A program made the position numbers and the translations under genes. The notes under the pieces were generated by a model. The model was not told the origin of the DNA. It did not search any database and was given only the letters and a program-made list of their open reading frames with translations. This document shows positions 41,660 through 47,895 of a DNA stretch of 64,000 nucleotides, in pieces. The stretch is from a virus. Positions within the stretch are counted from its first letter, which is position 1; each line of letters opens with the position of its first letter. Where the stretch lies: positions 12,525 to 76,524 of IMG/VR virus record IMGVR_UViG_3300036791_000458; one strand, written 5' to 3'.

Positions 41660-42547
41660 CTATCCTATGGTTCCCTCTATAGTGTTCGGGTGATTCCCAT
41701 TCCTACCTGTCCCGCCATTCCTCGTGGGATAGGTCTCATGTGGCACATTTCCATCAGTCAACTGGTGCACATTCATCTGTCCGACATCACCATTGATAAT
41801 CGCGTCTAGTACGTTGATAGTTACATTAGTTGGCTCCTGCTCTTCCTTAGGCATGAGTCTCTGCCACTTAGTCAAAAGAGTAAGCGCTTGAAGTTTGTCA
41901 TGTAGTTTGAACTTAGTCCGCCTTACTTTGGTAAAAACTTTAACTCCATTGTTTACAATAGGTTCCCTCAACACTTCTTCCTCGCAGATAAGTTCTCCAA
42001 TCGCAGCTGCTTGATTACGTGTGATATTTTGTAAATCAAATGACCATGATCCATCGGGATTGATCTGAATGTAATCGTACACATTGGAATAAGCGAGATT
42101 AGCGAGCTCTGATAGAGTCTTCTCAGCAGAAATTTCGAGGTGCCTAGACGCAACTTTAAGTACTCGATCTATCTCTTCTTTCACTCTGGGATTTTTCAGT
42201 AAGATAACCGAAACCTGCATAGGGTTCGAGTATCCTGCCTTCTGTGCCGCGGCTGTACCATTTAACTTGGGGTCTTCAACAAAGAACCGTACAAAAAGTG
42301 CTTGCCTAACGGTCAACTTACTTCCGGTAGCTCCACGTTTACCAAGCTTGATGAACTGATTGGAAATTTCCTGCTTTTTCTTGGTAGCTTTCGCAGTGGA
42401 ATTCTGACGGGACTTCTTGGACTTCTCTCTTTTTTGGGGGGAGATAGGTTTTCCAGTCGAAAAGACTAAAGGTACACGCGGGGGGACAGTCCTAACTTCT
42501 TGAGGCGTATTATCCATATAAACATTGGGGTGCCCATAACTAAACAT
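41660..42547 (-). CDS. terS: terminase small subunit
   Basis: LTVRQALFVRFFV...NGTAAAQKAGYS...LLKNPRVKEEI HTH, plus the TLSELANLAYSN and KFKLHDKLQAL signatures. Confidence 0.9.
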   Translation of the reverse strand: MFSYGHPNVYMDNTPQEVRTVPPRVPLVFSTGKPISPQKREKSKKSRQNSTAKATKKKQEISNQFIKLGKRGATGSKLTVRQALFVRFFVEDPKLNGTAAAQKAGYSNPMQVSVILLKNPRVKEEIDRVLKVASRHLEISAEKTLSELANLAYSNVYDYIQINPDGSWSFDLQNITRNQAAAIGELICEEEVLREPIVNNGVKVFTKVRRTKFKLHDKLQALTLLTKWQRLMPKEEQEPTNVTINVLDAIINGDVGQMNVHQLTDGNVPHETYPTRNGGTGRNGNHPNTIEGTIG

Positions 42548-42607: not shown

Positions 42608-42638
42608 ATTATGGTACTCGTATTGAGGGGGTTGTCAA
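42608..42638 (-). promoter_or_regulatory. putative sigma70-type promoter upstream of terS
   Basis: Minus strand TTGACA (42633-42638) followed by TACCATAAT. Confidence 0.45.
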
Positions 42639-42708: not shown

Positions 42709-43975
42709 AGCTCAGACTCAGACTGTGACTATGACTTAAACTTTGACTGTAGCCGTCTTTGACTCCGACTTAGACCTTGTCCATGACTTCGACTGTAGCT
42801 TACGAACGTCTTTGGAACTCTATGACTTTGACCACGACCTTGCCTTCGACTGTGGCTACTGAGACTTTGGCATTGAAAAGGACTCGGCCTTTGACTGCGA
42901 CTACGATTACGACTTCTTCAACTTCGACTTAGGCATCAACCGTGACTTTAACCTTGACTCCGGCTTCTAAGACTATGCCTAAACAGGGACTCAAGCTATG
43001 ACTGAGACTCCGTCTTCTTTGACTTCAACTACGACACCGACTTCGACACCAGCTATGGCCAAGTCCTTGACTTTAACCTTGACTCCGGCCTCTGTGACTT
43101 AAACACTGCCTGGGACTACGACTTCAACTGTAGCTTCTACGACTTCGACATAGATATCGCCTTCGACTCTGCCTAGAACGTTGACTATGGCCTCTTTGAC
43201 TAGAACATTGACCTCGTCTGTAACTCTGACTTCGGCACTCTTCGTCTACGGCAATGACCGGGTCTATAGCTGCGACTCCAACTTCGGCTTCTTCGTCTTC
43301 AACCTAGACTGGGACTACGACTTCAACTGCGACTTCTTAGACTCAAACTTAAACATCGGCTATAACTCAAACTTTGACACGGACTCAAGCGATTATGACT
43401 ATGGCCGTGACTTGGACTCAGACTCCTGAGACTGCGACTTCGTCTACGGCAATGACTATAACTGTGCCTTGGACTTCGACTTCAGCTTCTGTGACTACGA
43501 CACCGACTTTGTCCATAACTTTGACCGTGATTTATAACTAGACTACAACTCCGACTTTGACATTGCCCATGACCTTGACTACGACAGAAGACTACAGCTT
43601 CTGAGACTCGGACTGGGACTTCGTCTAAAACTCAAACTCTGACAGCGGCTGTGACCATGACTTTAACTGAGACTGTAGCTTCTCGGACTTAGACACAAAC
43701 TTAGACCTCGCCCATGACAATAACCATGACTTCAACTGCGACTGTGACTCCAGCTTCTGCGACTAGGACATAAACCACGACTTCATCTTAGACCGGGACT
43801 GCGGCTAGCTTCGACACGAGCTTTGACTTAGCCCACGACTATGCTTCAACTTTTTACGCGTAGACTTTGACTTGGCTTCAACTTAGTCATTGACTATGGC
43901 TTCTGTGACTAGGACTGTGACTGAATCATTGACACCGACTACGGCTTCTGAGACTATGACGTAAACTTCACTTCG
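42709..43975 (-). ncRNA. main hexamer-periodic non-coding array (putative guide-RNA array of the solo RAMP)
   Basis: About 1.25 kb of tandem RAC-(T/C/A)-NN hexamers on the plus strand (minus: NN-DGTY), broken into more than 20 blocks by 9-nt RGCTTC-TNN linkers. Stop codons occur in all six frames. The repeat is seen directly; the RNA role and strand are inferred. Confidence 0.7.
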
Positions 43976-44120
43976 ATTCTACTTGCCTATTGTCTGCAAG
44001 AAGTAATAACGCTTCAAGTTCAAACTGCAATTTTAGTGTATCCGTGCCATCAACATCCTCACCATTCTTCTTACGAAGCAATTCCAAAAGATGTCGGGTT
44101 GCAGTAAAATCCATGATCAT
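43968..44120 (-). CDS. 50-aa hypothetical protein embedded between array segments (below the ORF-track cutoff)
   Basis: GGAG RBS, then MIMDFTATRHLLELLRKKNGEDVDGTDTLKLQFELEALLLLADNRQVESK*. Confidence 0.55.
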   Translation of the reverse strand: MIMDFTATRHLLELLRKKNGEDVDGTDTLKLQFELEALLLLADNRQVESK

Positions 44121-44133
44121 TTAGCTACTCCAA

Positions 44134-44316
44134 TACTTTGACAGTGACTTAATCATAAGCACCGACATGGACTACGACTGTGGCTTCTATGACTCAGTCA
44201 TGGACTCGAACTAGGACTGTGGCAGCAACTTCAACCTTGACTATGACTCCGGCTTCTTCGACTTTGATCAAGGCTATAACTTCAACCTAGACTGCGGCAT
44301 CGGCTTCTTTGACTTC
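44134..44316 (-). repeat. second hexamer array segment
   Basis: gacagt gactta ... gactgt GGCTTC TAT gactca gtcatg gactcg aactag ... gactcc GGCTTC TTC ... ggcatc GGCTTC TTT. Confidence 0.85.
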
Positions 44317-44553
44317 GGGTTCATCAGGTTCATCGGTGAGAGTGACCTTGAAATATTCGCCACCTATCGAAAACACACGAGCGATATGTGATTCTTCTTC
44401 TGAAAGTGGTCTCCCAACTTCAATGCTAATGACAGGAGAAAAACCCTCGCTATAATCCGTTGCTTCCTTCACAAAAACATCAAAATCGTTTTCCTCAAGA
44501 TCATTACCTTCGAGCGGTATTTCAATCAAAAGTTTTTTCAAGTTTGCCTCCAT
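44287..44553 (-). CDS. small acidic hypothetical protein between array segments
   Basis: 88 aa ORF; its last codons overlap the array grammar. Confidence 0.55.
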   Translation of the reverse strand: MEANLKKLLIEIPLEGNDLEENDFDVFVKEATDYSEGFSPVISIEVGRPLSEEESHIARVFSIGGEYFKVTLTDEPDEPEVKEADAAV

Positions 44554-44560
44554 TTTCTTT

Positions 44561-44684
44561 ATCTTTGACTAAAACTGCGACTGAAACTGTGACTTAGACT
44601 CCGGCTTCTTCGACTGAAACTCGAACTCTGACACGAACCGTGACTTTGACTCAGGCTTCTTCGACTTTGGCTATGACTTAGCTA
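44561..44684 (-). repeat. third hexamer array segment
   Basis: gactaa aactgc gactga aactgt gactta gactcc GGCTTC TTC gactga aactcg aactct gacacg aaccgt gacttt gactca GGCTTC TTC. Confidence 0.85.
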
Positions 44685-44690
44685 AGGCGG

Positions 44691-45809
44691 TTACTGAATT
44701 TCTAAAATGGTCAAGTGCACCATCTGTCCGCTCATCTCCACCACTTCACCAACGTATTGCTTCGAGGTTAGTCCGAAGATTGCGACATGTGGCTCACCAT
44801 TTGATGGTTTGTGCTCATAGATGAGATTGGTTTTAAAATCCATCGTCAGAACTTTTTTGACGGCCTCAACCGCGTGCTCGGGTTTGTACTCGAACACATT
44901 GGTTTTGTCTTCCCCTCTCAATAGTTCTGTGCCCATACGTTTGACCGCGTCTTTGTGGAGTGCTTCCCATGACAACGGCACATCGAACAATTCGATAGTC
45001 TTGCACCCGGTGTAGGTAATCAGTGACAACCCACACTGGTTTTCATGCAGGCGTGCCTTGGAAAGAATGTCATCGAAGTTCTGCGAGAAAGCATCGAAGT
45101 TATCCTTGAGATTATCCTGTCTAAAAGAAGAAAGAGGCGGCTGTTCCTCGGGAATTGATACTGACGAACCGAATATTCCGCTAGAACGAGATGTGAATGT
45201 ACGACGAACACCCGGAACACGTCCGGAGATATCCGCGCTCACTCTTTCACCACCCATCATGGCGTTCATGGTTGTAGTGGTTTTGGTTACGTTCTCCCAA
45301 ACCGTATGTTGATCTGCTGGAGTGAACCCCGCTGTGTAGCTCGCGTTCTCAACCGCAATTGGAACGGTGCCACCGTACTTGAAATTGCTTCCAGTACGAA
45401 TACCATGACTCGCGTGAACACACCGAGCATCAAGCGCAACCTCAGAGTTAGGAAACAACACCGCGCTTCTGGTAATGATTCTGGACTGGGTTCCCTTGCC
45501 TTCGAAGATGGTTCCGGAGCGAAGGAAGACGTTTTCTTTCCCAGTGTTTTTGATATTGATTTTGTTGATCATGCCACTGTCCGTAACAATGACGTTTTCT
45601 GTCTCTGGCATGGTGACATACTGACGGACAAAAGTGGTTTCCCGAAGGATTGGAAGGATACAAGCTAAGGATTTCTCGGATGGACGATCTGGTTTTCCGA
45701 ATGAGAAACCCAACTTCTCTTCTGCTACTGCAAGAAGAACTGCCTCTTTGCTAAGAGTTTTAGCCATGTGGTACTCCTTTTGTTCACGGATTCTTCCGTG
45801 TATACACAT
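44691..45809 (-). CDS. ARPP-1/DUF6569-like protein
   Basis: V.VTDSG.IN.INIKN.G..NVFL.SG.IF.G..TQSR......V.....V....RCV pattern and a later QH.VW..V motif. The likely start is MAKTL at 45767 (GGAG RBS). Confidence 0.65.
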   Translation of the reverse strand: MCIHGRIREQKEYHMAKTLSKEAVLLAVAEEKLGFSFGKPDRPSEKSLACILPILRETTFVRQYVTMPETENVIVTDSGMINKINIKNTGKENVFLRSGTIFEGKGTQSRIITRSAVLFPNSEVALDARCVHASHGIRTGSNFKYGGTVPIAVENASYTAGFTPADQHTVWENVTKTTTTMNAMMGGERVSADISGRVPGVRRTFTSRSSGIFGSSVSIPEEQPPLSSFRQDNLKDNFDAFSQNFDDILSKARLHENQCGLSLITYTGCKTIELFDVPLSWEALHKDAVKRMGTELLRGEDKTNVFEYKPEHAVEAVKKVLTMDFKTNLIYEHKPSNGEPHVAIFGLTSKQYVGEVVEMSGQMVHLTILEIQ

Positions 45810-46504: not shown

Positions 46505-46552
46505 TACTTCGACTTAGGCGGCGTCGTAGTCTGAGCCTGTGACCGTGACTTA
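46505..46552 (-). repeat. single short hexamer block just downstream of the RAMP terminator
   Basis: tacttc gactta ggcggc gtcgta gtctga gcctgt gaccgt gactta, with C at every third position of the hexamer. Confidence 0.55.
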
Positions 46553-46623
46553 AAAAAATGGACTACTCCCCAACGACAGAGAGTAGTCCCGAGTTTATCC
46601 GTACCCGGAAGGATTTCGGATAA
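46552..46623 (-). terminator. intrinsic terminator of the RAMP gene preceded by a second hairpin
   Basis: Minus strand: TTATCCG...CGGATAA hairpin, then GGACTACTC-loop-GAGTAGTCC followed by ATTTTTTT. Confidence 0.75.
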
Positions 46624-46648: not shown

Positions 46649-47362
46649 TTATTCTGCTTCTGCTTTTTCTTCGCCTTCAACTTCTTCGTCGTCTTCTGGA
46701 ACGGTGACCTTTGCTTTCTTGGGCGCGGGAGTCAGATAGTCCCAACCCGCGACTTGGAACCGTCCATACCCTTGAGGACGAGCAGAACCGATACCAATCT
46801 GTTTCCCGCCCCATTCGATCAGCTTCTTCAAATCGTCGGGCAGGATGATTTCCTCATCAACAGAGAACACGCCCCGGGCAATGAAGTCATCGATGTAGAA
46901 ACTGGAGCACCAGTTCCGCTGGTTGGACGTTTCCATTTTGACGAAACGTTCAAAGAGCTTCGCGTCAGCGACAGTCTTCTCGGTGACCATCATTTTGTCC
47001 GCTATCTTGACACCGATGAACGTCAAACCCTTGTCAGACACACGCGGAATCGCTTTCGGCGCTTGCATCGACGCATTGTTGATGAAACTCTGAATGATTC
47101 GTTCCGGGATTGCGATCAGACCTTCACGCGTGCCGTCCACGGTGTAGAAGGGACGTTCTGCTTTTTTCTGCATGTCTTCGTAGTTCTCTTTGGTGAGACC
47201 ACGTTTTTCGAGCGCAGCGAGCAGAGCCTGCTCTTTTTTGCTCGCGCCCAGTTTGGGGTGAACGTCTTTGCTGATGTCGATGATTGTATTACGCTCGGGC
47301 CAGTAAGGCAATCCGATGTAACCGGAACCATTGAAGTTAAACGCGACTTGAACTTTAACCAT
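46649..47362 (-). CDS. stand-alone RAMP / Cas7-like (Csm3/Cmr-type fold) protein
   Basis: C-terminal glycine-rich loop LKKLIEWGGKQIGIGSARPQGYGRFQV, internal PFY..DG...IP...I.S.I..A segment, N-terminal beta strand, and acidic tail. Strong RBS (AAGGAG). Confidence 0.75.
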   Translation of the reverse strand: MVKVQVAFNFNGSGYIGLPYWPERNTIIDISKDVHPKLGASKKEQALLAALEKRGLTKENYEDMQKKAERPFYTVDGTREGLIAIPERIIQSFINNASMQAPKAIPRVSDKGLTFIGVKIADKMMVTEKTVADAKLFERFVKMETSNQRNWCSSFYIDDFIARGVFSVDEEIILPDDLKKLIEWGGKQIGIGSARPQGYGRFQVAGWDYLTPAPKKAKVTVPEDDEEVEGEEKAEAE

Positions 47363-47430: not shown

Positions 47431-47895
47431 CTACGGGAGTCGGTCTAGTAGCTCAGGACGATTTCTCTTAAGCCACCTTTTCAATGCTTTAAGTTTGTAC
47501 AAAGTCCGTCTACCAGACCGTTCAACGGGGAATGATGAGTTCAACAGTCTCCATCCGGAAACTGTTGCTGGAGGCACATCCAACATTCTCAATAACATGT
47601 CCAACGTAACCAAGTCAACACTCCGCCGAGAAAACACGTTTTCAATTTTCTGATCGGCAACCTCATTGTGAGTTATCCAACCCGTCTTAGTTCCATACGG
47701 GCGCCGGAATTCAATCCAAATGCGGTAGCTATTTAAAACTTCGACCATCCCATAAATCGGATGCTTGATCTGGCCGAGTTCATCACAGCGAATCCAATCC
47801 TTCTTTCCATCCGGGCGTAAAAATTGAATCCAGAGATAACCTCGCTTCAAAACTTTTACCATTCCAAAATCGGGGTGCTTAATCTGATCACTCAT
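47431..47895 (-). CDS. DNA-binding protein with duplicated N-terminal module and C-terminal excisionase/MerR-like HTH
   Basis: QIKHP..GMV.VL....WI.F.RP.G....WI occurs twice, then LDVPPATVSGW...FP....GRRTLYKL..L.RWL. Confidence 0.6.
   Translation of the reverse strand: MSDQIKHPDFGMVKVLKRGYLWIQFLRPDGKKDWIRCDELGQIKHPIYGMVEVLNSYRIWIEFRRPYGTKTGWITHNEVADQKIENVFSRRSVDLVTLDMLLRMLDVPPATVSGWRLLNSSFPVERSGRRTLYKLKALKRWLKRNRPELLDRLP

What the first reader, a model, noticed from the sequence alone, without database searches (positions are those of the whole stretch)
43968..44691. Array segments start right at gene 3' ends, interleaved with small ORFs
Seen: the same grammar recurs at 44561-44684 (directly after the ARPP-1-like stop codon) and at 44134-44316 (overlapping the last codons, EVKEADAAV*, of 44287..44553). 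The main array begins at the stop of an unannotated 50-aa ORF (43968..44120). Inference: the arrays are transcribed on the minus strand as 3'-UTR-embedded RNAs of a polycistron and excised. The two small ORFs may be accessory partners or cargo.
Basis: partly seen in the sequence, partly recalled or inferred. Interest (0 to 1): 0.7.

Follow-up and report, generated by a model that had tools for sequence, protein, structure and literature searches.

The report
Six-base VIPR-like guide array with inserted genes
The repeat blocks that begin at the ends of three phage genes are pieces of one long array of six-letter repeats, which belongs to a lone CRISPR-like (Cas7/Vipr-type) protein gene nearby; this is most likely a six-base version of the VIPR RNA-guided silencers described in 2026, and the small genes between the blocks are passengers, not partners.

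Summary
Minus-strand blocks at 44561-44684, 44134-44316 and 42709-43965, plus a mini block at 46505-46552, share one grammar: hexamers NN-A-G-Y-C, with an extra GAR triplet every 7-9 hexamers. They score z 7-37 above shuffles and carry stops in all six frames.

The owner is not the ARPP-1 gene. It is the 237-aa ORF 46649..47362, which has a Cas7/Csm3-like fold; its only sequence match among solved structures is the SUSP1 Vipr protein. In about 20 other metagenome or genome loci the same kind of array lies directly downstream of this gene family, always on the gene's strand. No other gene is conserved.

The variable NN letters turn over quickly and have the composition of codon positions 1-2. 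A G-loop residue changes in step with the fixed repeat letter. Best reading: a hexanucleotide variant of VIPR, which is published only with five-base repeats.

The 88-aa ORF, the 50-aa ORF and ARPP-1 are non-conserved cargo inside the array. The array has stops in every frame, so abutting stop codons are expected.

No RNA data and no natural target were found. This scan noted six-base VIPR-like arrays before on other DNA.

The parts
46649..47362 (-). Vipr/Cas7-like RAMP gene (237 aa), the conserved protein partner of the arrays
   Evidence: No Pfam hit. The AF2 model has pLDDT 84. The Foldseek top hits are all Csm3, Cmr4 or type VII Cas7 (E 3e-6). VIA-align gives Z 11.3 and 10.2 to Csm/Csm3. 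The family profile hits only 'SUSP1 Vipr protein' 36pp_D among PDB sequences (E 5.2e-5). About 100 clusters share 50-90% identity. There are 253 representatives at E<=1e-3.
46560..46589 (-). Intrinsic-terminator-like hairpin (13-bp stem plus T7) right after the RAMP gene
   Evidence: Similar hairpins lie between gene and array in L129, L136 and L139.
46505..46552 (-). Mini block of 8 hexamers (one guide-like unit)
   Evidence: z 6.8 against shuffles. Its NN string recurs at 14 of 14 letters, at six-base spacing, in the sister phage G403.
45824..46292 (-). Two small ORFs (65 aa 46095..46292; 108 aa 45824..46150) between the RAMP gene and ARPP-1; variable cargo
   Evidence: The 65-aa ORF occurs only in the sister phage. 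The 108-aa ORF is unique to the window. Neither has a Pfam or PHROG hit.
44691..45809 (-). ARPP-1 domain protein (372 aa); cargo, not coupled to the array
   Evidence: PF20208, E 6.9e-21. 87% identical in the sister phage. 61% identical in L002, which has no array and no RAMP gene.
44561..44684 (-). Array segment A (about 20 hexamers; linkers at 44660 and 44609)
   Evidence: z 12.5. Linker positions.
44287..44553 (-). 88-aa ORF: a real small gene inserted in the array; residues 75-88 are array-encoded tail
   Evidence: Homolog P0099 is 54% identical over residues 1-74 only. The ORF is absent from the sister phage, whose array is continuous here.
44134..44316 (-). Array segment B (about 30 hexamers); overlaps the last 10 codons of the 88-aa ORF
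   Evidence: z 16.6. Translation.
43968..44120 (-). 50-aa ORF: probable real small gene embedded in the array, shared only with the sister phage
   Evidence: A GGAG ribosome-binding site is kept in both phages. There are 11 synonymous against 12 non-synonymous codon differences. The only homolog is P0101 from the sister phage.
42709..43965 (-). Main array: about 200 hexamers NN-A-G-Y-C in about 20 units separated by W-GAR-GYC linkers
   Evidence: z 37. Stops in all six frames. Hexamer consensus G 94% at position 4, C 74% at position 6. Linker coordinates. No Rfam hit. No stable fold, z -0.3.
42611..42638 (-). Promoter-like site (TTGACA-16-TACCAT) between the array end and terS (41660..42547)
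   Evidence: terS matches PF03592 at E 1e-16. This is a consensus match only.

Best explanation
The three blocks, plus a mini block at 46505-46552, are fragments of one VIPR-like guide-RNA array. The array belongs to the lone Vipr/Cas7-like gene at 46649..47362.

Proposed mechanism, by analogy with published VIPR:
- The array is transcribed from the minus strand.
- One protein protomer binds each six-base repeat and sequesters the constant A-G-Y-C.
- The two free bases (NN) are presented for gapped pairing with DNA of competing mobile elements. One target base is probably skipped per repeat, at the codon wobble position.
- An extra GAR triplet every 7-9 repeats (modal spacing 45, 51 and 57 nt) delimits about 25-30 guide-sized units.

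The ancestral layout is the gene followed immediately by its array. In this phage lineage a cassette (two small ORFs plus ARPP-1), the 88-aa gene and the 50-aa gene sit inside the array as passengers. The array carries stops in every frame, so each inserted ORF ends at or just inside the next block.

Shown here: the array grammar, the fold and Vipr homology of the protein, the gene-array coupling and co-orientation across loci, hypervariable NN with codon-like composition, G-loop/repeat covariation, and non-conservation of the ORFs.

Inferred: transcription, processing, filament formation, DNA targeting and the skip rule.
For: (1) Fold and homology. The fold is Cas7/Csm3-like. The only PDB sequence hit is SUSP1 Vipr, over the thumb and G-loop: GIGSARPQGYGRF against GVGDWRPR-FGRF.

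(2) Coupling. In about 20 loci with 41-91% protein identity, a hexamer array lies 0-60 nt after the gene's stop, on the same strand. No array lies on the opposite strand. The gene is the only ORF conserved across 24 loci.

(3) Nucleotide-level constraint. G at position 4 is 86-100% and C at position 6 is 74-100% across loci, while NN is free. Stops occur in all frames.

(4) Fast NN turnover. The arrays of the window and its sister phage are not colinear, although the flanking proteins are 87-91% identical.

(5) Codon-like NN. NN frequencies over 1459 hexamers match sense codon positions 1-2 (r 0.78, p 3e-4). No other phase or orientation matches (r -0.28 to 0.19). Each locus gives 0.57-0.81. 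This is what the published one-base-skip rule predicts (bioRxiv 10.64898/2026.04.26.720920).

(6) Covariation. All 19 NN-A-GYC loci have Ala at the G-loop place that aligns with SUSP1 W178. The one NN-T-GYC clade has Cys or Ser there.

(7) Unit size. Unit spacing of 6n+3, with modes at 45-57 nt, is similar to the 9-16 x 5 nt of vrRNAs.

(8) No stable RNA structure (z -0.3 to +1.5), as expected for a protein-coated single strand.

(9) The small ORFs and ARPP-1 are not conserved with the module.
Against: - There is no RNA evidence. No RNA run holds the sequence.
- A strong terminator lies between the gene and the first block.
- No natural target was found under any skip rule in local data, in the sister phage, in IMG/VR exact scans or in Acidobacteria genomes.
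- The period is 6, not the 5 that defines published VIPR.
- No structured 3' tail or handle was seen.
- Sequence similarity to Vipr is weak (E 5e-5, about 60 residues).
- The window's array is more degenerate than those of relatives: position 3 A 71% and position 6 C 74%, against 88-100% in L138 and L141. It could therefore be partly decaying.
- The G-loop covariation rests on one phylogenetic event.
Confidence: 0.7

Rival explanations
1. Scaffold or decoy RNA without guide function. The Cas7-like protein coats the hexamer RNA, for example to sequester host type III CRISPR parts or RNases, or to build an RNP structure. The NN letters would simply drift.
For: No target was found. The arrays are very long (about 245 hexamers) and degenerate in the window. 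The 6-nt period equals the footprint of CRISPR Cas7 subunits. RNA anti-CRISPRs that nucleate aberrant Cas7 filaments are known (own knowledge, not checked here).
Against: NN composition mirrors codon positions 1-2 in one orientation only, which neutral drift does not predict. The regular 6n+3 punctuation into guide-sized units and the homology to Vipr favour guides.
Confidence: 0.12
2. One reading: the 50-aa and 88-aa ORFs (and ARPP-1) are accessory partners of the RAMP, analogous to VIPR vap genes, and the arrays are their 3' UTRs.
For: The genes are tightly nested in the array and co-oriented with it. The 50-aa ORF is kept with its ribosome-binding site inside the sister phage's array. Published VIPR loci often carry one accessory gene.
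Against: About 20 loci with RAMP and array hold neither ORF nor ARPP-1. ARPP-1 occurs without the system in L002. The 88-aa ORF is missing from the sister phage's array.
Confidence: 0.08
3. A DNA-level element: an array of protein-binding hexamers on double-stranded DNA, such as a packaging or partition site next to terS, or a nucleoid-like binding field.
For: In the window and in the sister phage the main array lies just upstream of terS. Terminator-like hairpins separate gene and array in some loci. There is no RNA evidence.
Against: In other loci the array is not near terS. It lies next to integrases, a primase-like gene or unrelated genes. Strict co-orientation with an RNA-binding RAMP gene holds in all loci. 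The strand-specific codon-like NN composition is hard to explain for a symmetric dsDNA site.
Confidence: 0.06
4. Remnant of, or a still translated, (Val/Ala-x)n repeat protein gene.
For: Spacing keeps to multiples of 3. In one frame the array reads V-x-V-x...E-E-A. Array-like codons form the tails of real ORFs.
Against: Each frame has 20-32 stops in the main array. The constraint is on nucleotides, including the third 'codon' positions (GT-C, NN-A), while the first two positions of the x codon are free. TA and TG, which give TAA and TGA, are enriched and not avoided. The same non-coding grammar is kept in about 20 loci.
Confidence: 0.02

Closest known systems
VIPR systems (Vipr protein plus vrRNA), e.g. 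type II of Escherichia phage SUSP1; bioRxiv 10.64898/2026.04.26.720920 and 10.64898/2026.04.26.720927
   Same: Both have a single small RAMP protein in a phage with no other cas genes. The family profile's only PDB sequence hit is SUSP1 Vipr. Both have a tandem-repeat array next to the gene with fixed letters alternating with two hypervariable letters. Guide-sized units are about 45-57 nt. The NN letters look like codon positions 1-2, as the published one-base (wobble) skip rule predicts.
   Different: The repeat is six bases (NN-A/U-G-Y-C, four fixed) and not five (GGY/NN or the 5-nt variants NNNGG, YNNNG, NNNNG). G-loop residues at the base-reading places differ (D177/W178 become Ser/Ala, with one extra residue). 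No structured 3' tail was seen; units are separated by a GAR triplet instead. No conserved vap gene is present. The array is much longer (about 245 repeats) and is interrupted by genes. Expression, targets and skip rule are unproven.
VIPR arrays with non-canonical repeats and 'staggered' arrays (same preprint, fig. S17-S18 legends; Evo-PIN survey, bioRxiv 10.64898/2026.10.21.760802)
   Same: Both show long continuous arrays in which one guide follows another without an obvious handle, with alternative fixed motifs (for example GAC/NN, WGT/NN) next to Vipr-like folds.
   Different: All reported variants have period 5. The survey's other periods were 7, 8 and 10, and I found no mention of period 6 in it. 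Here the period is 6, with 3-nt punctuation.
Cas7 backbone of class 1 CRISPR effectors (Csm3/Cmr4, type VII Cas7)
   Same: These are the best structural matches. In them one subunit covers 6 nt of crRNA (established knowledge), the same step as this array.
   Different: No Cas10, Cas5, Cas6 or Cas11 was seen in the genes looked at, and there is no CRISPR repeat-spacer array. Four of six bases are fixed here, whereas five of six are free in crRNA. No conserved Asp was seen in the loop after strand 1, where Csm3 carries its catalytic Asp (alignment; position from own knowledge).
ARPP-1 domain proteins (Pfam PF20208)
   Same: The 372-aa ORF matches over the full domain.
   Different: It is not part of the array system. 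It occurs without the system in L002 and is absent from about 20 array loci.

Membership tests
VIPR | Vipr-family RAMP protein: single RRM core, G-loop, thumb, about 20-25 kDa | tested here: met
   AF2 model with pLDDT 84. Csm3/Cmr4-like fold at Z 10-11. HMM profile against PDB sequences returns only SUSP1 Vipr (E 5.2e-5), across the G-loop.
VIPR | Minimal locus: no other cas genes, no CRISPR array; mostly viral or proviral | tested here: met
   The window is an IMG/VR virus record. Neighbours have no Cas hits in Pfam, PHROGs or PADLOC. Only the RAMP gene is conserved across 24 loci. Relatives sit next to integrases. The whole 76-kb genome was not scanned gene by gene.
VIPR | Tandem-repeat array beside vipr with fixed letters alternating with a hypervariable NN | tested here: met
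VIPR | Pentanucleotide repeat (YNNGG or related 5-nt consensus) | tested here: not met
   The period is 6 in all loci. The published definition and variants are all 5-nt.
VIPR | Array transcribed into vrRNAs (about 100 nt or less) that co-purify with the protein | not testable with these tools
   No RNA run holds the sequence.
VIPR | Conserved structured 3' tail capping each vrRNA (type II) | tested here: inconclusive
   No Rfam hit and no folding signal. Units are delimited by a W-GAR-GYC linker instead. Published 'staggered' arrays are drawn with one vrRNA ending where the next begins.
VIPR | Gapped recognition of dsDNA with a one-base skip; natural targets in competing mobile elements | tested here: inconclusive
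   NN composition equals codon positions 1-2 (r 0.78), which fits. No natural target was found. Near-matches are not convincing.
VIPR | Associated vap accessory gene | tested here: not met
   There is no conserved neighbour. An HTH_17 gene lies upstream only in the window and its sister phage. The paper says loci 'typically' have a vap, so this is not a strict criterion.
Class 1 CRISPR-Cas (type III/IV/VII) | Cas7 together with Cas5/Cas10 or other effector subunits and a repeat-spacer array | tested here: not met
   No such genes or arrays in the region, and none conserved in relatives.

The most novel reading that the evidence does not exclude
This is a hexanucleotide class of VIPR. Each protomer would sequester four bases (A/U-G-Y-C) and present two. 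Long arrays would be cut, or read, at GAR triplets into tail-less guides of 45-57 nt. The step length (6 nt) is that of CRISPR Cas7 backbones, so the family could be a structural intermediate between five-base VIPR and class 1 CRISPR. In addition, the arrays would act as landing sites for passenger genes, whose transcripts carry guide units in their 3' ends.
Probability: 0.35. Interest if true: 0.8.

Novelty: new variant of a known kind. Interest (0 to 1): 0.62.

Why it matters
VIPR was described only in 2026, as a minimal RNA-guided DNA-recognition system written in five-base repeats. A natural six-base version with a different fixed motif and different G-loop residues would show that the protein-RNA code is evolvable. 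It would give a second geometry for engineering gapped guides.

Its step equals that of CRISPR Cas7 filaments, so it bears directly on the proposal that VIPR-like systems preceded CRISPR.

For annotation, it explains a 2-kb 'non-coding' stretch of this soil phage. It also warns that ORFs abutting such arrays, and array-encoded C-terminal tails, are by-products and not partners.

Tried and rejected
Tools and data that gave nothing:
- No RNA holder was listed for the region. Read laying was not used, because the one DNA run is probably the source sample.
- Rfam gave no hit at E<=1.
- blastn against GenBank phages gave no match.
- A scan of IMG/VR for (AGTCNN)x5 returned mostly coding Ser/Pro or Arg/Ser repeats in unrelated viruses.

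Target hunting:
- Seeds of 7 dinucleotides at skips of 0-4 against 1.3 Mb of fetched loci gave chance-level counts. The single longer hits were within chance.
- All window and sister-phage units against both whole phage records equalled the shuffled controls.
- Exact skip-1 patterns of two long units had 0 hits in IMG/VR.
- One unit against 121 Acidobacteriaceae genomes with up to 3 mismatches had 0 hits.
- One unit against 401 genomes gave 44 near-hits against 6 for the reversed control. The one looked at lies in a TonB-receptor-like protein. I attribute this to the guide's codon-like composition and a conserved, probably multi-copy motif, not to targeting.

Readings rejected:
- A coding reading of the array, because of stops and nucleotide-level constraint.
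- ARPP-1 as the array's partner.

Other:
- The first papers search on ARPP-1 returned only the eukaryotic phosphoprotein.
- The VIPR paper's supplementary tables are not held. I could not check whether this protein family is among its 2,664 Vipr hits.
Full report
**What is in the sequence**

The window is a virus record (76.5 kb), and nearly all of its long ORFs lie on the minus strand.

Between terS (41660..42547; PF03592) and a 237-aa ORF (46649..47362) lie four blocks of one repeat grammar. Read on the minus strand, they are degenerate hexamers NN-A-G-Y-C. Every few hexamers an extra triplet is inserted (W-GAR-GYC).
- GACT on the plus strand occurs 99 times in 42.7-44.7 kb, against about 3 per 500 nt elsewhere. 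Spacings are multiples of three.
- A dynamic-programming parse finds about 245 hexamers, with G at position 4 in 94%.
- The four blocks score z = 12.5 (44561-44684), 16.6 (44134-44316), 37 (42709-43965) and 6.8 (46505-46552) above shuffles. Coding controls do not.
- All six frames are closed, with 5-8% stops per codon in each minus-strand frame.

- The ARPP-1 ORF (PF20208, E 6.9e-21) stops 6 nt before block A.
- The 88-aa ORF reads 10 codons into block B.
- The 50-aa ORF stops 2 nt before the main array.

**The array is not coding**

The constraint sits on nucleotides that would be third codon positions (GT-C, NN-A). The first two positions of the 'x' codon are free. TA and TG, which would give TAA and TGA, are more frequent than in real codons.

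There is no Rfam family and no stable fold. The z-scores are -0.3 and +0.4 for the two strands of the window, and +1.5 for the clean array of L138.

**Who owns the array**

The 237-aa protein has no Pfam hit but belongs to a well-conserved family of about 100 clusters at 50-90% identity (alignment A1).
- Its AlphaFold model (pLDDT 84) matches Csm3, Cmr4 and type VII Cas7 chains throughout the top of the Foldseek list (E 3e-6).
- An independent aligner gives Z 11.3 and 10.2.

Thirty-three related loci were fetched from metagenomes and genomes.
- Wherever the gene is complete and downstream DNA is present, a hexamer array starts 0-60 nt after its stop, on the same strand. None lies on the opposite strand.
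- Array lengths range from about 7 hexamers (L132) to about 190 (L138).
- All-against-all clustering of ORFs shows that this gene is the only one conserved across 24 loci.
- Neighbours include integrases and a primase-like gene. The module is therefore a two-part accessory unit of Acidobacteria phages and prophages; two hits lie in Terracidiphilus and Acidobacteriota MAGs.

**Link to the literature**

A note from earlier agents of this scan pointed to VIPR systems, and I checked this.
- The preprints (10.64898/2026.04.26.720920; 10.64898/2026.04.26.720927) describe phage-borne Vipr proteins, which are Cas7-like RAMPs.
- These proteins polymerise one protomer per repeat on vrRNAs made of 9-16 YNNGG pentamers. 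They sequester GGY and present NN.
- They recognise dsDNA with one skipped base per repeat, usually the codon wobble base, and so silence competing phages and satellites.
- A profile of my family against all PDB sequences returns one hit, 'SUSP1 Vipr protein' (36pp_D, E 5.2e-5). It covers the end of the thumb and the G-loop: GIGSARPQGYGRF against GVGDWRPR-FGRF.
- All published repeats, including the variants NNNGG, YNNNG and NNNNG and the non-canonical motifs of the Evo-PIN survey, have period 5. I found no mention of period 6.

**Three further tests support a VIPR-like mechanism**

1. NN is hypervariable. The arrays of the window and of its sister phage are not colinear, and identity stays at the 63-70% set by the fixed letters. 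The flanking ARPP-1 and RAMP proteins are 87% and 91% identical. Only two units are shared: the mini block and one unit in the main array.

2. NN looks like codon positions 1-2. Over 1459 hexamers from 20 loci, with the linker hexamer of each unit dropped, the 16 NN frequencies correlate with sense codon positions 1-2 of the phage's genes (r 0.78, p 3e-4). They do not correlate with any other codon phase or with the antisense (r -0.28 to 0.19). Each locus on its own gives 0.57-0.81. This is what copies of coding DNA read with a wobble skip would look like.

3. A G-loop residue tracks the fixed letter. All 19 loci with A at hexamer position 3 have Ala at the G-loop place that aligns with SUSP1 W178, the residue that stacks on a fixed guanine. 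The three loci with T at that position have Cys or Ser. These three form one clade (support 99/96), so this is one evolutionary event: suggestive, not proof.

The linker motif recurs at 6n+3, with modes at 45, 51 and 57 nt. These units are of vrRNA size.

**The genes between the blocks**

Ancestrally the array abuts the RAMP gene. In the window and its sister phage only one 8-hexamer unit remains there, behind a strong terminator. A cassette of small ORFs plus ARPP-1 follows, and then the rest of the array.

- ARPP-1 also occurs, at 61% identity, in a high-GC phage with neither RAMP nor array (L002).
- The 88-aa ORF is a real gene. One homolog is 54% identical over residues 1-74, and the last 14 residues are array-encoded. 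It is absent from the sister phage, where the array runs on uninterrupted.
- The 50-aa ORF is probably real. The ribosome-binding site is kept, and there are 11 synonymous against 12 non-synonymous changes. It is found only in the sister phage.
- None of these genes occurs in the other array loci.

They are therefore passengers and not accessory partners. Because the array closes every frame within about 13-20 codons, their stops fall at or just inside the next block without any special design.

**What remains open**

- There is no RNA evidence.
- No natural target was found in 1.3 Mb of fetched loci, in the two sister phages, in IMG/VR (exact) or in Acidobacteria genomes.
- One unit gives 44 near-matches against 6 for the reversed control in 401 genomes. 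The one looked at falls on a RNNNFMVEGVD motif in a TonB-receptor-like protein. I regard this as an effect of codon-like composition and a conserved, probably multi-copy motif, and keep it only as a lead.
- Transcription, processing at the GAR linkers, filament formation and DNA targeting are therefore inferred by homology and analogy.

**Verdict**

It is partly wrong: the ORFs are not partners, and the junctions are not designed.
- The element is best filed as a new, hexanucleotide variant of the VIPR kind. It is not a member of VIPR as currently defined by pentanucleotide repeats.
- Earlier agents of this scan reached the same reading for six-base arrays on other DNA.

Noticed in passing
window 43027-43092 (minus-strand unit, 12 hexamers): Read with a one-base skip, this unit spells G-[KN]-[KN]-[KN]-[FL]-[IM]-G-[DE]-G-V-[DE]. 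With up to 3 mismatches it has 44 near-matches against 6 for the reversed control in 401 Acidobacteria genomes. The hit I looked at lies in a protein whose sequence (RNNNFMVEGVD) looks to me like a TonB-dependent-receptor plug motif; I did not run a family search on it. This is probably a composition effect, but a receptor-silencing guide is not excluded.
   Followed up: partly
window 46505-46552 and G403:C1 about 42689 (sister phage): The single unit left directly behind the RAMP gene matches the sister phage at all 14 scored letters (7 dinucleotides), at six-base spacing. The main arrays are scrambled. One further unit (window about 43291, L123 about 14106) is also shared.
   Followed up: partly
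L139, L140, L142 (metagenome loci): One clade of the family uses NN-T-G-Y-C repeats with a T-GAA-GTC linker. Its G-loop has Cys or Ser in place of Ala. With T at the third position, one frame of the array has no stop codons.
   Followed up: yes
L138 1620-1790: A clean 1.2-kb array is interrupted by about 170 nt holding a long hairpin with a T-run. It resumes for 240 nt and ends at another hairpin. This may be an internal terminator or promoter that divides the array into two transcription units.
   Followed up: no
L134 312-507 and 1288-1576; protein P0024 N-terminus: Some loci have arrays on both sides of the RAMP gene. One database protein starts MVKVVVPVVVQVVVKVKF, which looks like an upstream array miscalled as coding.
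   Followed up: no
window 47431-47895 (-): The 154-aa ORF just upstream of the RAMP gene has two SH3/CSD-like repeats plus a weak HTH_17 match (E 0.005) and a weak PADLOC mad1 match (E 0.0013). A 41%-identical HTH stretch is upstream in the sister phage only. It may be a lineage-specific DNA-binding accessory.
   Followed up: partly
window 46649-46720 (-): The RAMP protein of this phage carries a 25-residue acidic C-terminal extension (…VPEDDEEVEGEEKAEAE) that most homologs lack. The DNA looks like degenerate array sequence, so the gene may have extended into the array.
   Followed up: no
L001 7119-7130 (sister phage): The ARPP-1 stop codon TAG is itself part of the first array hexamer (ATAGTC). 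The gene is fused flush to the array.
   Followed up: no
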